Source of the DNA: Promethearchaeia archaeon
Lineage (GTDB): Archaea; Asgardarchaeota; Lokiarchaeia; Sigyniarchaeales; SOKP01
NCBI GenBank assembly: GCA_029856155.1
Contig: JAHQWL010000035.1
Coordinates: 1 to 46,828, forward strand
Direction of reading: 5' to 3'
DNA length: 46,828 bases
In this document: piece by piece, positions 29,264 through 35,620 of the stretch
How positions within the stretch are numbered: the stretch's first letter is position 1
How the letters are laid out: each line of letters begins with the position of its first letter
Made by a program: the position numbers and the translations under genes
The notes under the pieces: generated by a model
Told to the model about the DNA's origin: nothing
Database searches by the model: none
Seen by the model: the letters and a program-made list of their open reading frames with translations, nothing else

Positions 29264-29502
29264 AGATCAAATCATTAAATGGTTTTTAATTAATTTTATT
29301 AAAATACAGTATTTTTGATATATTTGTTTAAGAATAAAAATTTATAGATTCACAATCTAGCGAATAATTGTTATAACCTATTGATACTAAGAAAAAGAAT
29401 TTTTACTAATTTTTTATTTTTTAAGAATAAAAATATTTATTATAACTTAGTCCATTAATTAATAAGGATTAACAAAAATATTCAATCAAGTTGAGGAGTG
29501 AT

Positions 29503-29955
29503 ATGACAGAAATAAAAAAACTACAATTAAGTACGGGAATAGAGGTAGATTTTGATAAAAAAGCACCAACTACTCTCTTTGAGCTGATAATTAGTGAGAT
29601 ATTGATTCCAAAATATAAAGAAAATGCTGATTGGAACTTAAGTTTAAATATTATCATTGAAGAAATGAATCGCCTCATAAAAAAGTATGATTTAAACCCC
29701 AAGTTAAAACTAGGATTACTGAATGATGTTGAGGAACATTTAGATAAAGACATCGAAGAACTCACGGGAGTAGATAAAATTGAAATACTATTTTTGAATA
29801 TGGATGATTACGTTGAAGATATAAAAAAAATAATACTTTCAGGGAAAGATAAGGAAGAAATTCGCACAAGTATGGCTCAAGTAGTAATGCCCTTAACGCT
29901 TTATGAATTATCTGAGCTTTTTATTTATTTAGGAAAGCGAACTTTTTTAAAATAA
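29503..29955 (+). CDS. Hypothetical protein
   Basis: ATG at 29503 after GAGGAG; helical and acidic, no motif recognised. Confidence 0.7.
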   Translation: MTEIKKLQLSTGIEVDFDKKAPTTLFELIISEILIPKYKENADWNLSLNIIIEEMNRLIKKYDLNPKLKLGLLNDVEEHLDKDIEELTGVDKIEILFLNMDDYVEDIKKIILSGKDKEEIRTSMAQVVMPLTLYELSELFIYLGKRTFLK

Positions 29956-29973: not shown

Positions 29974-30966
29974 TTAAATTCTATCGGTTTTCCTTTCTCT
30001 TAAAGTCGTAATCGGTCTACTCTGTAAAATATAGAGAATATCATTTTCGATTGCCCACTCAATGTCTTGAGGATAATTGAAACTTTTTTCAAGTTTTAAT
30101 CCAAGTTTATAGAGTCTAAAAAGTTGTGAATCATCAAGAGAACATACTTTTTGGAGATTTTTTTTAGTTGCTATTAAAGTTGTAGAAGATTCAGAAGGAT
30201 TAGGAATAGACATTTTTTCTTTTTCTCCTATAACCTTTTTTATAATACTAAACTTATTCTTGCTTATAATTAATAGATCTGGGATTATTAAATTACTTGT
30301 TATAGTTTCGCCAAGTCCCCAAGTGGAATTAACCAACATTTCATTCTTTGAATTATTTATTATGTTTGCTGTGAATAAAACCCCTGAAACTTGAGAATTG
30401 ACCATTTTTTGAATAATTACTGCCATTTCTAAGTCTTTTAACAAAATCTGCGTATTACTTTTTCTTATCTGTAGAAGATATAGTAATGCATTTGGAGTAA
30501 ATAAAGAGATCCAACAATTCTTTACCGATTCTAGTATCTCATCAAAAGTGATAATATTTAAGTAACTTTCTGCTTGTCCTGCAAATGAGAATTTAATTGA
30601 ATCTTCGATATTTGCTGAAGACCTAACAGAAAATGAGACTTTTTTCCCAACATTCTTACAAGTAATATCAAATGCTTTTTTAATTTCTTTAATAACCTCA
30701 GGGGGGATTTGAGATTTCAGAAATAAGTTCTTAATTTCTTTAGATATATTTAAAACATCTTTAGGTTGATAATCTAGTGAGAATCTATTGAAAATTTCTT
30801 CTTTTACAGGAGAATTTTCAAGAAATCTTTTAAAGGCAAGTGTATTTACAATAAATCCCAATGGAACATTTATTCCAAGTTTAATTAGATTTATTAAATT
30901 TGACCCTTTGCCACCAAATAAGCTCAGATTTGGGCTTACATTAGTTAAAAATTCTACATAAGTCAT
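29974..30966 (-). CDS. Stand-alone PEP synthase/PPDK N-terminal ATP-grasp domain protein
   Basis: GGKGSNL, VPLGF, VRSSANIED..FSFAGQ, IQKMV, GLGE, PQDIEWA, LQSRPITT, then stop. Confidence 0.92.
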   Translation of the reverse strand: MTYVEFLTNVSPNLSLFGGKGSNLINLIKLGINVPLGFIVNTLAFKRFLENSPVKEEIFNRFSLDYQPKDVLNISKEIKNLFLKSQIPPEVIKEIKKAFDITCKNVGKKVSFSVRSSANIEDSIKFSFAGQAESYLNIITFDEILESVKNCWISLFTPNALLYLLQIRKSNTQILLKDLEMAVIIQKMVNSQVSGVLFTANIINNSKNEMLVNSTWGLGETITSNLIIPDLLIISKNKFSIIKKVIGEKEKMSIPNPSESSTTLIATKKNLQKVCSLDDSQLFRLYKLGLKLEKSFNYPQDIEWAIENDILYILQSRPITTLRERKTDRI

Positions 30967-31007
30967 TTTTTAATTAAAAATGAATCGAGTGTAAAATAAT
31001 TTAGTCA

Positions 31008-31364
31008 TTAATCAAGTAAATATAAAATCCCATTATCATCTTCATCATGAACGATTTTTGCTGTTTTCCCATCTAATGATGAGATATCGTCTATTAGAAA
31101 TTTAATGCCCATAATACAAGGCAAACCAAATTCTCTAGAAACTATAGCTAAATGCGAACCTGCAGAACCTTTTGTACATATAGTACCAACCAAATCGGAT
31201 ATAATTGGGCTAAGTGTTGTGATTCCGGCATCTTCTACAATACAAATTTTTCCAGTAGCTTCATCAAATAGATTAATGACATCTTCTATTGTTTGAATAT
31301 AAGCTAATTCTCCAGTAACTTCAGATTTTGACGAACAAGATAAACCTTCACCGATTTTTTCCAT
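31008..31364 (-). CDS. Stand-alone PEP-utilising phosphohistidine swivel domain
   Basis: TKGSAGSHLAIVSREFGLPCIMG phospho-His signature in a 118-aa protein. Confidence 0.9.
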   Translation of the reverse strand: MEKIGEGLSCSSKSEVTGELAYIQTIEDVINLFDEATGKICIVEDAGITTLSPIISDLVGTICTKGSAGSHLAIVSREFGLPCIMGIKFLIDDISSLDGKTAKIVHDEDDNGILYLLD

Positions 31365-31526
31365 AAGAGATATCCCTAAGAGATCCTATTATATTGTAGT
31401 TAAATGATTTTTTATTTTTTATATATTACTTAAATTTTTTTAAAAATATGAGATTCAATTATTAATTATAAATATTAATAAGTTGAAATTACTAATCAAT
31501 AACCAAAATTTTATGAGAATAGCGAT

Positions 31527-32684
31527 ATGAATATTAAAGAAACTAATGAATTAATTGCTCATGTATCTGAAATAATTGATTACCAAGTTTCAAAGAGGGG
31601 TTTGTTAGAATCACAACTATTTCCCGTTACTGCTTATATTTGTGTCTCTTTTTATAATGCTTATGACATGCTCTATGATATTTTGAAAAAAGTATCAGAA
31701 AAAATTACTCCAGAAAAGATGGGAAAAGAAAGTCGGAAGATTTTATCAGAGATCCAAGCTCTTAGTATTTTCTATATACCATTATATTATATGGCGGGTC
31801 GAATGGGCGAGATCTATAGAAATAATGAAGATCCGAAAAGCGAAAGTGAAGAAAAAAGAAAGCAAACTATGTTCATATTAGATTTCTGGAGAAGATTAGC
31901 ATCCTCTTATTTTCCAAATAATAAATTATCTGTAAATGATTCAGCAAAGAAAAATATTGCATTAAACCAATCGGATATCGATTGGACATTAAATAATATT
32001 AAAGATGTTTCTAAAGAACAAGCTATGAAAATTAAAAGAACTATGGCAAACTTAGAACTGATTTCATACATAGATGAATGTGAAGCGAGAGCAAAATTAT
32101 GTGATCATGGACCCTATCGAGTAGATGAGAATGAAATTTTAGTTTTTCGAGAAATATTGCATTTGTACGATGGTGATAAACCTCATTTTCCTTGGTCTGC
32201 AACTGACGCAACGGCACCATATACGAATATTGCATTTGTTCTTCGCTTAAAAAATGTTGAAATAGAATTGGATGAATTTGCATCTCTAGAATCAAAACCT
32301 ATTGATTTTACAGATAATATAACAGGTGCGGCAATGCTAACTAGAGACGCAAACGATGTGATCCCGCTCGATTTTGATGTTTTAGATGCGTTTAATGATT
32401 ACGCTGTAAAGGCAAATAAGGAATTGTACTTGAAGTTTTCAAAATGGGATAGAAAACAGAGATTAATTGCTGGGGCTTACGCTTATTGCTATGGATATGC
32501 TAGATATACAAATTTTGTAGGAATAACCGATGAAATAAATTGGGATCTAACAGAAAGAACAATGAATAAATATATACCAGAATTCATGGAAAGTGATTTT
32601 GATCAAGGCATTCCAAGATTTTTCAGAAGTAGGGGAAAGAAAAAAAGGGAAGGACCATCTCTTTATTTATTGCCAGAGGATTAG
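31527..32684 (+). CDS. Hypothetical protein (candidate acceptor-binding subunit of the split dikinase)
   Basis: 385-aa soluble ORF divergent from the His-swivel gene; contains ECEAR..LCDHGPY. Function inferred from context only. Confidence 0.7.
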   Translation: MNIKETNELIAHVSEIIDYQVSKRGLLESQLFPVTAYICVSFYNAYDMLYDILKKVSEKITPEKMGKESRKILSEIQALSIFYIPLYYMAGRMGEIYRNNEDPKSESEEKRKQTMFILDFWRRLASSYFPNNKLSVNDSAKKNIALNQSDIDWTLNNIKDVSKEQAMKIKRTMANLELISYIDECEARAKLCDHGPYRVDENEILVFREILHLYDGDKPHFPWSATDATAPYTNIAFVLRLKNVEIELDEFASLESKPIDFTDNITGAAMLTRDANDVIPLDFDVLDAFNDYAVKANKELYLKFSKWDRKQRLIAGAYAYCYGYARYTNFVGITDEINWDLTERTMNKYIPEFMESDFDQGIPRFFRSRGKKKREGPSLYLLPED

Positions 32685-32689
32685 CTAAT

Positions 32690-33610
32690 ATGAATACTAA
32701 GGATTCACAGTCAAGGTTAACAGAAGCAGATGAGCTTCTTCATAAACCTACTAGCGAATCAAAATGGCGAGAATCATATTATTTTAATTGGGTTGATATT
32801 CAAAATGAAATTTCTGGTTTTTCGACCATAGGTTTTGTTCCTAACGAAAAGCGGCGAGAATTTGTTTTTTTGCTCTTTTTACAAGGAAGAAATGAAGTCT
32901 ATTATAAAGAACCACCACTTCTTCATTATGAAGATAATATTAATTCAATGCTCGAAGATAAAAAGCTTTCATATAAACTAATTGAACCATTTAAGGTTTG
33001 GCAAATCGATTATAACTCACGTAAATTAAAATTCAAACTTACATTTGAAACGAGATTTCCTACTTATTCTTTTGGAATTGATTCTTCTGCATCATGGCAC
33101 CAACATTTTGAAGCATCAGGGAAAATTATAGGAGAATTAATATTGAAAGATAATAAAAAGATTGAAATTAATGGATATGGACAACGTGATAAGAGCTGGG
33201 GATATCGTGATTGGCATCAATTTGATAAATGGTATGCAGGTCATTTCCAATTCGAAGGATGGTCATGTACTTTCCGAAAAGATTATTTTGGCAACCAAAT
33301 CGATTTATCAGGGCATACATCAAATAATGAGGGAAATATTCCATTATCTTCTCTAGAAATTGAAACATGTAATGATGACGATCAATTTAATAGTCCCCTT
33401 GCAACTACTTATTTTATTACAGATAAAAAGGATAATTCTTATACAATTAAAGCAGAGAGAATTAAAAAGAATTCATTTATAAGGTTTGCGAGGAGCTTTC
33501 AAGGTGGTTATACTGAACTTTTTGAGCAGATGGTATTCATGAAAAATTTTGATACAGGTGAAATTGGTTCGGGTATGATGGAGCATTTAAGAACGCATCA
33601 TATAGAATAA
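32690..33610 (+). CDS. Tocopherol-cyclase/AttH(CrtC)-like double beta-barrel protein (DUF7064-like)
   Basis: WRESYYFNW, HFEASG.I.G, GYGQRDKSWGYRDW. Starts 5 nt after the upstream gene. Confidence 0.65.
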   Translation: MNTKDSQSRLTEADELLHKPTSESKWRESYYFNWVDIQNEISGFSTIGFVPNEKRREFVFLLFLQGRNEVYYKEPPLLHYEDNINSMLEDKKLSYKLIEPFKVWQIDYNSRKLKFKLTFETRFPTYSFGIDSSASWHQHFEASGKIIGELILKDNKKIEINGYGQRDKSWGYRDWHQFDKWYAGHFQFEGWSCTFRKDYFGNQIDLSGHTSNNEGNIPLSSLEIETCNDDDQFNSPLATTYFITDKKDNSYTIKAERIKKNSFIRFARSFQGGYTELFEQMVFMKNFDTGEIGSGMMEHLRTHHIE

Positions 33611-33623
33611 AAAAAAATAAGAA

Positions 33624-33872
33624 TTAAGATAAGAAATGAGAGAGACTTATTATTGCAGCATTTAACACAACTTCATCACCCTCTTCCGCAGCTATGCTTA
33701 GTTTTTTAGGACGATCAATTCTGAAACCGTCTAAAGAATTAATTGGAAATTCAATGCGTCCTTCTTTATCACTTTCGATAAAAAATATTTGCTGATTGAT
33801 TCCACAGTGCCTGAGTCTATAAATTCTCATTTTATGCTCAGTATCATCCTTTAAGGTAATTATCAAATCCAT
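33624..33872 (-). CDS. Small beta-rich hypothetical protein, paralog B
   Basis: ATG at 33872 aligns with the start of the neighbouring paralog; shares CGINQ..FFIES.KEGRIEFPI..L.GFRIDRPK. Confidence 0.8.
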   Translation of the reverse strand: MDLIITLKDDTEHKMRIYRLRHCGINQQIFFIESDKEGRIEFPINSLDGFRIDRPKKLSIAAEEGDEVVLNAAIISLSHFLS

Positions 33873-33964
33873 TTCATCCAACCTTCTTAACTTTCAAACT
33901 TTTTTATTTATATTATTACTTTTTCAACTATTGGGATATATCGAATGAATTATAGTATCAATGA

Positions 33965-34210
33965 CTATATTAAATGTTTTGAGAGAATTCCAATTGCAGT
34001 ATATAACACGGTACTATCATCTTCATAAGCGGTTCTATGACTTTTTGGACGATCAATCCTAAAACCACTCAAATTTTCAATAGGAAATTCAATACGACCT
34101 TCTTTTGCGCTTTCGATAAAAAATTTTTTCTGATTAATTCCACATTCTATGAGTCTAAGGATCGTCATTTTAAACTGAGTTCCATCTTTTAAGAAAATAT
34201 TCAAATCCAA
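33965..34210 (-). CDS. Small beta-rich hypothetical protein, paralog A
   Basis: TTG start; tandem paralog of 33624-33872. Confidence 0.8.
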   Translation of the reverse strand: MDLNIFLKDGTQFKMTILRLIECGINQKKFFIESAKEGRIEFPIENLSGFRIDRPKSHRTAYEDDSTVLYTAIGILSKHLI

Positions 34211-34487: not shown

Positions 34488-35357
34488 ATGTGTAAATGGT
34501 GTATGCAACATGGAATCGGAAAAAAATGGTACATGAATGCAAGAAATTATTCAGATCAGCTTGCTGATGAACACAATCTTCGAGAATATTTAACTGAGCA
34601 GTGGATGAATTTTGAAGCGGTATATATCAGAAAAATTGCGGGATTATCTTCAAAAGGTTTGGGCTACAAATTACAGATGCCGTTAATTGGAAAAATTCTT
34701 CGATGGAGTGTTGAACGAATGATACACGGAGCTGTTAAACATCCGAATCCTATTAGAGCAGATGGTCATATTGGGCAGGTTATACCTATGGAAGACGCTC
34801 AAATTATTCTCGCAAATCTAGCAGCAGAACCGATAGTTGAAACCTATTGCATGTGTCGTAAAATGCAACGAGGCGTAAATTATCAGTGTTGTATTAATTT
34901 TGGAGTGCTTTCAGAAGTTTTGGAAAAGCTTCCAAGATTTATACCTAAAGAGAGAGCACATAGGATATCTCGAGAAGAAGCAATGGAAAGAATAGAACAA
35001 CATAATAAAAATGGATTAGTATCTACTGTTTGGTATCAACCTTATCCATATATAAATGCTATATGTAATTGTGAGAGCCCAGAATGTGGTGCTTTGCGCT
35101 TAAGAAATGATTTTGATCTAATGATAATGTCTAAAGCAGAATACATAATTGAATTAAATCAAGATAATTGTCAAGGGTGTAAAGCTTGTGTATCTATGTG
35201 CCAATGGAGTGCTATACGTTATATCCCATCTATTAAGAGAGTTATAATTGATTACAATAAGTGTTTTGGATGTGGAGTCTGTCGTCATGCTTGTAAACAT
35301 GACGCTCTAAAGCTTATACCAAGGCAAGAATTTCATGGATTTGATGGACATTTTTAG
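34488..35357 (+). CDS. 4Fe-4S dicluster domain protein with extra Cys-rich N-terminal region
   Basis: CQGCKACVSMC and CFGCGVCRHAC, plus CKWC..HG, CMCR, CC and ICNC...C. Confidence 0.85.
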   Translation: MCKWCMQHGIGKKWYMNARNYSDQLADEHNLREYLTEQWMNFEAVYIRKIAGLSSKGLGYKLQMPLIGKILRWSVERMIHGAVKHPNPIRADGHIGQVIPMEDAQIILANLAAEPIVETYCMCRKMQRGVNYQCCINFGVLSEVLEKLPRFIPKERAHRISREEAMERIEQHNKNGLVSTVWYQPYPYINAICNCESPECGALRLRNDFDLMIMSKAEYIIELNQDNCQGCKACVSMCQWSAIRYIPSIKRVIIDYNKCFGCGVCRHACKHDALKLIPRQEFHGFDGHF

Positions 35358-35365
35358 GTGGTTTT

Positions 35366-35620
35366 ATGGGAAAAACAAAAATAAAAATTGATTATTCAAA
35401 ATGCGGCTCTGAGGGAAAGGTTGATCCGAGAGATTGTGCAAAATGCCTAAATGTATGTGACCCTTGTGTGTTTTTAAGACATGAAGATTTAAAATATAAA
35501 GAAGAAAATGTGTATGACCCAAAACATTGGAAAATTACAGCAATTTGGCCATCTGTTTGTACACGCTGTTATAAATGTATAGATGTATGCCCAGAAAATG
35601 CTATAAGTATTAAATGGTGA
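35366..35620 (+). CDS. Ferredoxin (2x[4Fe-4S]-type)
   Basis: C-x10-CAKCLNVC and CTRCYKCIDVCP; SD GGTGG upstream. Confidence 0.85.
   Translation: MGKTKIKIDYSKCGSEGKVDPRDCAKCLNVCDPCVFLRHEDLKYKEENVYDPKHWKITAIWPSVCTRCYKCIDVCPENAISIKW

What the first reader, a model, noticed from the sequence alone, without database searches (positions are those of the whole stretch)
29974..33610. Split dikinase-type phosphotransferase system: free ATP-grasp, free His-swivel, orphan acceptor subunit and cyclase-fold protein
Seen: the ATP-binding domain (29974-30966) ends right after LQSRPITT, and the phospho-His domain is a separate 118-aa gene (31008-31364). No pyruvate/PEP TIM-barrel domain is present in the window. 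Across a 162-nt divergent gap lies a tight two-gene unit (5-nt gap): an unrecognised 385-aa protein and a tocopherol-cyclase/AttH-like barrel. Known: PEP synthase, rifampin phosphotransferase, glucan-water dikinase and phenylphosphate synthase all combine these two modules with a third, substrate-specific domain. Inference: the 385-aa protein is a new acceptor-binding subunit of a three-chain ATP->AMP+Pi kinase acting on an unknown, possibly aromatic or lipophilic, hydroxyl. Alternatively the free His protein is a diffusible HPr-like phosphocarrier.
Basis: partly seen in the sequence, partly recalled or inferred. Interest (0 to 1): 0.8.

Follow-up and report, generated by a model that had tools for sequence, protein, structure and literature searches.

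The report
Split dikinase coupled to phosphate-eliminating lyase
An Asgard archaeon encodes the ATP-binding part, the phosphate-carrying histidine part and a previously undescribed 385-residue partner of a PEP-synthase-type kinase as three separate genes. They sit next to a relative of the only known phosphate-eliminating "phosphosteroid lyase", so the locus most likely removes water from an unknown alcohol at the cost of ATP.

Summary

- **Linkage in Asgard genomes.** The 385-aa gene (X385) is followed by the DUF7065 gene in 48 of the 49 related loci examined. A free His-swivel gene lies nearby in most of them, and a free ATP-grasp gene wherever the flank was long enough to show it.
- **Independent recurrence.** A paralogous Asgard cluster repeats the same four families. 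In 15 actinobacterial genomes the His-swivel domain is fused or adjacent to X385, three times per locus.
- **X385 fold.** The model is very confident (pLDDT 96.6) yet has no neighbour among solved structures (best Z 2.7). It shows no similarity to the rifampin-binding-type acceptor domain of known two-component dikinases.
- **The "cyclase-fold" neighbour.** It is a homologue of 25-phosphosteroid lyase and keeps that enzyme's RDxSWGxR motif.

Best reading (about 0.6): ATP to AMP + Pi phosphorylation of a hydroxyl on X385, then phosphate elimination by the lyase. The substrate is unknown.

The two Fe-S genes are frequent neighbours but not obligate ones. Congeners have lost the four-gene block by deletion.

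First readers of this scan noted the same cluster on other genomes. None of those notes had been followed up.

The parts
29974..30966 (-). Stand-alone ATP-grasp (PPDK_N) subunit, 330 aa; nucleotide-binding part of a PEP-synthase-type dikinase
   Evidence: PF01326 E 4.6e-82. Best NCBIfam and PDB relatives are the N-terminal domains of PEP synthase and rifampin phosphotransferase. Conserved next to the His gene in 14 of 20 long loci.
31008..31364 (-). Stand-alone phospho-His swivel protein, 118 aa; His71 (codon 31152-31154) in GSAGSHLAIVSRE
   Evidence: PF00391 E 2.2e-9 and the sequence itself. The same domain is fused N-terminally to X385 in P0142/P0271 and P0178.
31365..31526 (.). 162-nt AT-rich divergent intergenic region between the His/ATP-grasp pair and the X385/lyase pair
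   Evidence: Sequence. The head-to-head arrangement is kept in most related loci.
31527..32684 (+). X385: 385-aa protein of an uncurated family, proposed acceptor-binding/phosphotransfer subunit. Invariant R188 and G195; near-invariant R24, R92, P196, Y197, G316.
   Evidence: No Pfam or NCBIfam hit. AF2 pLDDT 96.6, pTM 0.94. No PDB neighbour. Conservation. Fusion and synteny.
32690..33610 (+). DUF7065 / Rv3169-family protein, homologue of 25-phosphosteroid lyase; proposed phosphate-eliminating C-O lyase. Invariant R166-D167-x-S169-W170-G171-x-R173.
   Evidence: PF23213 E 3.7e-17. A family profile hits PDB 9fzn/9g2i/9g4c at E 4.8e-8 with the motif aligned. It lies 5 nt after X385, and the pair is adjacent in 48 of 49 related loci.
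34488..35357 (+). 289-aa Fe-S protein: Cys-rich N-terminal domain of unknown family plus a C-terminal 2x[4Fe-4S] ferredoxin domain. A frequent but non-obligate neighbour.
   Evidence: Fer4 families cover only residues about 220-280. Adjacent in 15 of 20 loci. Present in 98 of 113 X385-positive and 100 of 287 X385-negative Asgard genomes. Retained where the cassette is deleted.
35366..35620 (+). 84-aa ferredoxin, 8 nt after the 289-aa Fe-S gene; travels with it
   Evidence: Fer4 families. Found in 15 of 20 loci.

Best explanation
The four genes 29974-33610 encode a three-chain, PEP-synthase-type dikinase plus a phosphate-eliminating lyase. The proposed steps are as follows. (1) The ATP-grasp protein binds ATP. 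(2) His71 of the free swivel protein takes the beta-phosphate, releasing AMP and Pi; this step is inferred from the family mechanism. (3) The phospho-His protein docks on X385, which binds the substrate in an arginine-rich conserved site (R24, R92, R188, GPY195-197), and the phosphate is transferred to a hydroxyl. This step is inferred from gene fusion, synteny and conservation. (4) The translationally coupled 25-phosphosteroid-lyase homologue then expels phosphate to give an alkene or another carbocation-derived product; this step is inferred from homology and the conserved catalytic motif. The net reaction would be an irreversible, ATP-driven dehydration of an unknown alcohol. That alcohol is probably hydrophobic and possibly a tertiary or isoprenoid alcohol. 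The neighbouring Fe-S proteins may act before or after this step but are not required partners.
For: No PEP/pyruvate barrel is available for this pair, and complete PEP synthase and PPDK lie elsewhere in the genome. X385 is followed by the DUF7065 gene in 19 of 20 long loci and 29 of 29 short loci. A free His gene lies nearby in 24 of 29 short loci, and both His and ATP-grasp genes in 14 of 20 long loci, at X385 identities from 91% down to about 40%. A paralogous Asgard cluster repeats ATP-grasp, His, an X385 paralogue and a DUF7065 paralogue. There is a Rosetta-stone fusion of His-swivel to X385. In 15 actinobacterial genomes there are three His+X385 modules per locus. One is always followed by a protein that matches 25-phosphosteroid lyase at E 6e-26, and a PPDK_N-swivel protein lies nearby in the 12 loci whose flank reaches it. 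The Asgard DUF7065 profile matches 25-PSL at E 4.8e-8 with RDxSWGxR and the C-terminal GxGxxE aligned; the deposited 9g4c variant differs at that Asp. Published work shows that tertiary phosphoesters have an ATP-like group-transfer potential, so an ADP-forming kinase is fully reversible (PMC8449060). An AMP+Pi-forming dikinase would remove that problem. Two-component dikinases whose acceptor subunit alone carries out phosphotransfer are established (PMC12167813).
Against: No biochemical data exist for any member. The substrate is unknown. The window's lyase homologue matches 25-PSL only at profile level, and single-sequence phmmer finds nothing. The known 25-PSL works with an unrelated ADP-forming kinase (PMC8449060). 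The actinobacterial ATP-grasp protein carries its own swivel domain, which suggests a more complex relay there. X385 could have a role other than acceptor binding.
Confidence: 0.6

Rival explanations
1. The dikinase phosphorylates a small molecule as an end in itself, for example to trap or scavenge it or to activate it for carboxylation as in phenol, cresol and hydroxyacetophenone catabolism. On this view the DUF7065 protein does different chemistry (hydratase, isomerase, cyclase or binding protein) and is not a phospho-lyase.
For: Known two-component dikinases (PpsAB, CreHI, HpeHI) feed carboxylases or oxidases, not lyases (PMC12167813). The actinobacterial X385 loci carry a biotin carboxylase, a pyruvate-carboxylase-type carboxyltransferase, an acyl-CoA synthetase and thiolases.
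Against: No carboxylase is present in the Asgard clusters. X385 and the lyase homologue are 5 nt apart and stay adjacent in Archaea and Bacteria. The lyase catalytic-type motif is invariant.
Confidence: 0.17
2. The module is a regulatory phosphorelay. The ATP-grasp and swivel proteins act as a histidine autokinase like mycobacterial VadK, and X385 is a protein partner or target rather than a small-molecule-binding enzyme.
For: A PPDK-derived protein lacking the barrel acts as an autophosphorylating regulatory kinase (PMC13400623). The free His protein may serve more than one X385 type in some genomes. The actinobacterial ATP-grasp protein has its own swivel domain in addition to the X385-linked ones.
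Against: The tight operonic coupling to an enzyme-family gene argues against it, as do the arginine-rich invariant site and the catabolic-type gene neighbourhood in Actinobacteria. The cassette is also lost as a unit in congeners.
Confidence: 0.1
3. An ordinary PEP synthase has been split into pieces or is decaying, and works with a barrel domain encoded elsewhere.
For: The ATP-grasp domain is most similar to that of PEP synthase.
Against: The gene order is His first, the reverse of the fused enzymes. Both genes are intact and conserved as separate genes in dozens of genomes. The genome has no orphan PEP-utilizers_C domain and already holds complete PEP synthase and PPDK genes.
Confidence: 0.02

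Closest known systems
Two-component small-molecule dikinases PpsAB (phenylphosphate synthase), CreHI and HpeHI; single-chain rifampin phosphotransferase (PMC12167813, PMC4844700)
   Same: They have a separate or modular PEP-synthase-like ATP-grasp unit and a swivel domain with a catalytic His preceded by Ser. No PEP/pyruvate TIM barrel is present. The presumed stoichiometry is ATP to AMP + Pi + phospho-product.
   Different: In those enzymes the acceptor domain is homologous to the rifampin-binding domain and carries the swivel domain at its C-terminus. Here the swivel is a free 118-aa protein, N-terminal when fused in Actinobacteria. The acceptor candidate X385 shows no sequence or fold similarity to that domain. 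The follow-up enzyme is a lyase homologue, not a carboxylase.
25-hydroxysteroid kinase / 25-phosphosteroid lyase cascade of Sterolibacterium denitrificans (PMC7411048, PMC8449060; PDB 9FZN, 9G2I, 9G4C)
   Same: It uses the same logic of phosphorylating an alcohol and then eliminating phosphate, and the lyase belongs to the same family with the RDxSWGxR motif conserved.
   Different: The known kinase is an unrelated, ADP-forming, fully reversible phosphotransferase-family enzyme encoded away from the lyase. Here the kinase would be an AMP-forming dikinase encoded beside the lyase. The substrate is certainly not known to be a steroid.
Rv3168-Rv3169 operon of Mycobacterium tuberculosis
   Same: It pairs a kinase-like gene with a DUF7065/Rv3169-family gene in one operon (PMC5340868). 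The window's protein matches NCBIfam Rv3169_fam.
   Different: Rv3168 is an aminoglycoside-phosphotransferase-like protein, not a dikinase (PMC3691515). The function of that pair is also unknown.
PEP synthase and pyruvate phosphate dikinase
   Same: Both have the ATP-grasp and swivel-His domains and the three-site phosphotransfer principle.
   Different: They are single chains with the order ATP-grasp, swivel, TIM barrel. Here there is no barrel, there are three chains, and the gene order is reversed.

Membership tests
PEP-utilising dikinase superfamily (PEP synthase, PPDK, RPH, PpsAB) | PPDK_N ATP-grasp nucleotide-binding domain | tested here: met
   PF01326 E 4.6e-82 covering profile positions 3-317 of 328; PDB PEP synthase and RPH ATP-grasp hits.
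PEP-utilising dikinase superfamily (PEP synthase, PPDK, RPH, PpsAB) | Swivel (PEP-utilizers) domain with the conserved catalytic His | tested here: met
   PF00391 E 2.2e-9, above the cut-off; His71 in GSAGSHLAIVSRE.
PEP-utilising dikinase superfamily (PEP synthase, PPDK, RPH, PpsAB) | ATP to AMP + Pi stoichiometry through a pyrophospho-/phospho-His intermediate | not testable with these tools
   Needs enzyme assays.
PEP synthase / PPDK proper | C-terminal PEP/pyruvate-binding TIM barrel (PF02896) | tested here: not met
   None in the window. The genome's only two copies lie inside full-length enzymes on contigs 49 and 88.
Two-component phenolic dikinases (PpsAB/CreHI/HpeHI) | Separate ATP-grasp subunit | tested here: met
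   330-aa stand-alone gene.
Two-component phenolic dikinases (PpsAB/CreHI/HpeHI) | Acceptor subunit that carries the swivel domain at its C-terminus in the same chain | tested here: not met
   The swivel is a separate 118-aa gene. In the bacterial fusions it is N-terminal.
Two-component phenolic dikinases (PpsAB/CreHI/HpeHI) | Acceptor domain homologous to the rifampin-binding domain of RPH | tested here: inconclusive
   No RPH chain appears among the Foldseek or VIA matches. hhalign of the X385 profile against the central domain of the genome's own RPH-like protein gives probability 0.3%. X385 also misses NCBIfam PRK08296 and PRK06241.
DUF7065 / Rv3169 family, including 25-phosphosteroid lyase | Match to the family models above their cut-offs | tested here: met
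   PF23213 scores 63.4 bits against a cut-off of 27. The NCBIfam Rv3169_fam match is below its cut-off (30 against 150 bits).
DUF7065 / Rv3169 family, including 25-phosphosteroid lyase | Sequence relationship to the solved 25-PSL with the RDxSWGxR motif | tested here: met
   Profile A4 against 9fzn_A gives E 4.8e-8 with the motif aligned and invariant in 19 Asgard sequences. The actinobacterial neighbour of X385 hits 9fzn at E 6.3e-26.
DUF7065 / Rv3169 family, including 25-phosphosteroid lyase | C-terminal DUF7064 domain | tested here: inconclusive
   Not detected in the window's protein. Detected in paralogues L054 and L049. The C-terminal GxGxxE aligns weakly with 25-PSL.
DUF7065 / Rv3169 family, including 25-phosphosteroid lyase | Phosphate-eliminating C-O lyase activity | not testable with these tools
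   Needs the phosphorylated substrate and an assay.

The most novel reading that the evidence does not exclude
X385 is a new protein fold that forms a third class of acceptor module for swivel-His dikinases, beside the TIM barrel and the rifampin-binding-type domain. Together with a 25-PSL-type lyase it would make an AMP-forming, irreversible alcohol-dehydration machine, shared by Asgard archaea and Actinobacteria and acting on tertiary or isoprenoid alcohols.
Probability: 0.4. Interest if true: 0.8.

Novelty: new variant of a known kind. Interest (0 to 1): 0.68.

Why it matters
Swivel-histidine dikinases are known with only two kinds of acceptor module. This locus points to a third, with a confidently modelled fold that has no solved relative, used as a free subunit.

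It also ties the dikinase to the recently solved phosphosteroid-lyase family. Members of that family sit next to kinase genes in several lineages, but only one substrate is known.

If confirmed, it would show a general "phosphorylate, then eliminate" route for removing unactivated hydroxyl groups without oxygen. Driving it with two phosphoanhydride bonds would make thermodynamic sense of the reversibility measured for the ADP-forming steroid kinase.

The actinobacterial version lies in cultivable, genetically tractable genera (Gordonia, Nocardia, Rhodococcus), so the function is directly testable there.

Tried and rejected
- **Contig look-up closed.** Contexts came from the genome search, the fetch from genomes and the search for related loci instead.
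- **Profile-based locus search failed.** The search for related loci with alignments A1 and A3 failed for lack of a conserved stretch. A single-protein query worked.
- **X385 has no detectable relatives of known structure or name.**
  - The X385 profile against PDB sequences gave nothing meaningful.
  - Foldseek gave a best E of 0.1 and VIA-align wide a best Z of 2.7.
  - The ESM Atlas gave no usable hit for X385.
- **Fe-S protein.** The ESM Atlas gave only unnamed clusters for its N-terminal domain.
- **Docking not measurable.** Model coordinates are not exposed, so the distance from the His to the conserved X385 site in the fused model could not be measured.
- **Defence system considered.** The patchy distribution prompted this idea, but PADLOC gave no hits.
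- **Split or decaying PEP synthase rejected**.
- **Phenol-type kinase plus carboxylase rejected for the Asgard locus.** No carboxylase is conserved there.
- **Fe-S proteins as obligate subunits rejected.** They persist in genomes and loci that lack the cassette.
- **Failed call.** One Pfam call failed on a mis-set frame and was not repeated.
Full report
**Setting.** The window has about 29% G+C. It carries a Loki-CTERM protein and a TrmB regulator. The closest relatives of its genes come from Lokiarchaeia/Promethearchaeota assemblies. The host is therefore an Asgard archaeon.

**Observation.**
- The ORF list reproduces every coordinate in the finding.
- 29974-30966(-) is a 330-aa PPDK_N ATP-grasp protein (PF01326, E 4.6e-82). 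It stops 13 residues after LQSRPITT.
- 31008-31364(-) is a 118-aa PEP-utilizers swivel protein (PF00391, E 2.2e-9). It has His71 in GSAGSHLAIVSREFGLPC.
- The His gene lies upstream of the ATP-grasp gene, with a 41-nt gap. This order is the reverse of the fused enzymes.
- Across a 162-nt divergent spacer lie a 385-aa ORF with no Pfam or NCBIfam match (X385) and, 5 nt later, a DUF7065/Rv3169-family protein.
- The genome also holds a complete PPDK, a complete PEP synthase and two RPH-like 917/942-aa proteins on other contigs.
- The PEP/pyruvate barrel occurs only inside the first two of those. The split pair is thus a fifth paralogue with no barrel to work with.

**Is the linkage real?**
- X385 is found in 113 of 400 Asgard genomes, but in only 10 of 53 other genomes of its own genus.
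- I fetched 20 loci with about 10-kb flanks, spanning X385 identities from 91% to about 30%.
  - 19 have the DUF7065 gene directly after X385.
  - 14 have both the free His and the free ATP-grasp gene.
  - 15 have the 289-aa Fe-S gene with its 84-aa ferredoxin.
- Among 29 further loci with 1.5-kb flanks, all 29 have DUF7065 and 24 have the His gene.
- The genus whose type-I loci lack a His gene has its only free His/ATP-grasp pair in a second, paralogous cluster. That cluster reads ATP-grasp, then divergently His, an X385 paralogue of about 458 aa (sometimes His and X385 twice), and a convergent DUF7065 paralogue.
- The same four families therefore assemble independently twice within the Asgard group.

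**Fusion evidence.**
- An exhaustive search of 1.8 billion representatives found only 186 clusters related to X385.
- Two of them (575 and 516 aa) carry an N-terminal PEP-utilizers domain. One is annotated in Gordonia otitidis.
- In 15 actinobacterial genomes (Gordonia, Nocardia, Rhodococcus, Pseudonocardia, Geodermatophilus and others) each locus holds three His+X385 modules, either fused or as adjacent genes.
- Those loci also hold:
  - a 576-586-aa PPDK_N-swivel protein;
  - a biotin carboxylase and a pyruvate-carboxylase-type carboxyltransferase;
  - an acyl-CoA synthetase and thiolase-like genes;
  - an SRPBCC protein;
  - LuxR and MmyB-type regulators.
- In all 15, the gene after the fused His-X385 gene has no Pfam match. 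It is nevertheless a clear homologue of 25-phosphosteroid lyase (phmmer against PDB 9fzn, E 6.3e-26; hhalign to the Asgard DUF7065 profile, probability 87%).

**What X385 is.**
- An AlphaFold2 model built on 81 diverse homologues is very confident (pLDDT 96.6, pTM 0.94). It shows a helical N-terminal half, a central antiparallel sheet and C-terminal helices.
- Foldseek against the PDB gives nothing better than E 0.1.
- An exhaustive VIA-align pass over 48,161 representative chains peaks at Z 2.7. The tool notes that unmatched models typically reach 7-8.
- The profile finds no PDB sequence. It does not align with the central domain of the genome's own RPH-like protein (probability 0.3%).
- The family's conserved residues are dominated by arginines: R24, R92 and R188 (R188 is invariant). 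Alongside them are E186, G195-P196-Y197, E209, W223 and G316. That set is plausible for a phosphoryl-transfer site.
- The natural Gordonia fusion models with pTM 0.86 despite a disordered 36-residue linker. This suggests a defined docking of the swivel domain, but I could not inspect the coordinates.

**What the neighbour is.**
- A profile of 19 Asgard DUF7065 proteins hits only one solved family, 25-phosphosteroid lyase (9fzn, 9g2i, 9g4c), at E 4.8e-8.
- The invariant Asgard residues fall on identical residues of the lyase: H18, Y31-F32-N33, P51, R166-D167-x-S169-W170-G171-x-R173 and the C-terminal GxGxxE.
- The deposited 9g4c variant differs from 9fzn at exactly that Asp.
- In Sterolibacterium the lyase completes an ATP-dependent dehydration of a tertiary alcohol, after phosphorylation by an unrelated ADP-forming kinase (PMC7411048, PMC8449060).
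- That kinase reaction is fully reversible (Keq about 0.34), because the tertiary phosphoester is as energy-rich as ATP (PMC8449060).
- A dikinase that spends ATP to AMP + Pi would make such a phosphorylation irreversible. This gives a rationale for pairing this lyase family with a dikinase.
- Kinase-lyase pairing recurs elsewhere: Rv3168 (an aminoglycoside-phosphotransferase-like protein, PMC3691515) and Rv3169 form an operon (PMC5340868).

**Comparison with known dikinases.**
- PpsAB, CreHI and HpeHI are two-component enzymes: a free ATP-grasp subunit plus an acceptor subunit.
- That acceptor subunit is homologous to the rifampin-binding domain and carries the swivel domain at its C-terminus.
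- HpeH alone catalyses phosphotransfer between substrates (PMC12167813).
- The present system shares the free ATP-grasp unit and the Ser-His swivel motif. It differs in having a free swivel protein and an unrelated acceptor candidate.
- The His protein may also serve two X385 types in some genomes.

**Fe-S genes and loss of the cassette.**
- The 289-aa Fe-S protein has a Cys-rich N-terminal domain of no known family. It is 60-90% conserved across Asgard, Bathyarchaeia and Korarchaeia assemblies.
- It occurs in 98 of 113 X385-positive and 100 of 287 X385-negative Asgard genomes. These genomes are related, so the association is descriptive only.
- Three congeners lacking X385 keep the flanking order TrmB, ferredoxin, Fe-S gene, orf154. 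The adjoining M24 peptidase gene is kept in only one of the three.
  - One retains only the last roughly 30 codons of the DUF7065 gene.
  - A second retains that remnant plus the ATP-grasp gene.
  - The third shows no remnant of the cassette.
- The four-gene block is therefore an accessory cassette that has been deleted repeatedly. The Fe-S pair has a life of its own.
- PADLOC finds no defence-system relatives.

**Verdict.** The three-chain dikinase reading is supported by synteny, paralogous recurrence and domain fusion. The added result is that the partner gene belongs to the phosphate-eliminating lyase family. The most coherent mechanism is therefore ATP-driven dehydration by phosphorylation and elimination. 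The domain identities and the linkage are shown. The phosphotransfer path, the role of X385 as acceptor site, the lyase reaction and the class of substrate are inferred. First readers of this scan noted the same cluster on several other genomes, but no follow-up existed.

Noticed in passing
window 33624-33881 (-) and 33965-34210 (-): Two paralogous small ORFs (85 and 81 aa) sit between the lyase gene and the Fe-S gene. They have no PADLOC hit. Similar ORFs occur in two other loci (L032, L036), so they are probably real inserted genes of unknown function.
   Followed up: partly
L096:10231-10329 and L098:10458-11476: These are deletion scars in congeners that lack X385. One keeps only the last roughly 30 codons of the DUF7065 gene. 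The other keeps that remnant plus the ATP-grasp gene. In both, the surrounding genes keep their order.
   Followed up: yes
L070:840-20024; L072:7445-21605 with L095:889-7719: The actinobacterial cluster holds three His+X385 modules and a 25-PSL homologue. It also has a PPDK_N-swivel protein, a biotin carboxylase, a pyruvate-carboxylase-type carboxyltransferase, an acyl-CoA synthetase, thiolase-like genes and an SRPBCC protein. A TPP enzyme and LuxR/MmyB regulators are present too. It looks like an uncharacterised catabolic pathway in steroid- and hydrocarbon-degrading genera.
   Followed up: partly
L087:8720-12742; L088:8127-14051; L089:7128-11348: This is a second, paralogous Asgard cluster. 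An ATP-grasp gene lies divergent from a His gene and an X385 paralogue of about 458 aa (duplicated in some genomes), with a convergent DUF7065 paralogue in L087 and L088. L089 reaches the contig end with no DUF7065 match.
   Followed up: partly
window 34488-35357 (+): The 289-aa Fe-S protein has an N-terminal 220-residue Cys-rich domain (CxxC, CMC, CC, CNCxxxxC) that matches no curated family. It is 60-90% conserved across Asgard, Bathyarchaeia and Korarchaeia assemblies.
   Followed up: partly
P0165 / P0161 (Burkholderia ambifaria and a metagenomic relative): These 726-728-aa proteins carry an N-terminal X385 domain and a 340-residue C-terminal extension that has no Pfam match.
   Followed up: no
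window 29491-29955 (+): A 154-aa ORF convergent with the ATP-grasp gene is 63-90% conserved in the family. It is retained where the cassette is deleted, so it is not part of the system. It matches no family.
   Followed up: partly
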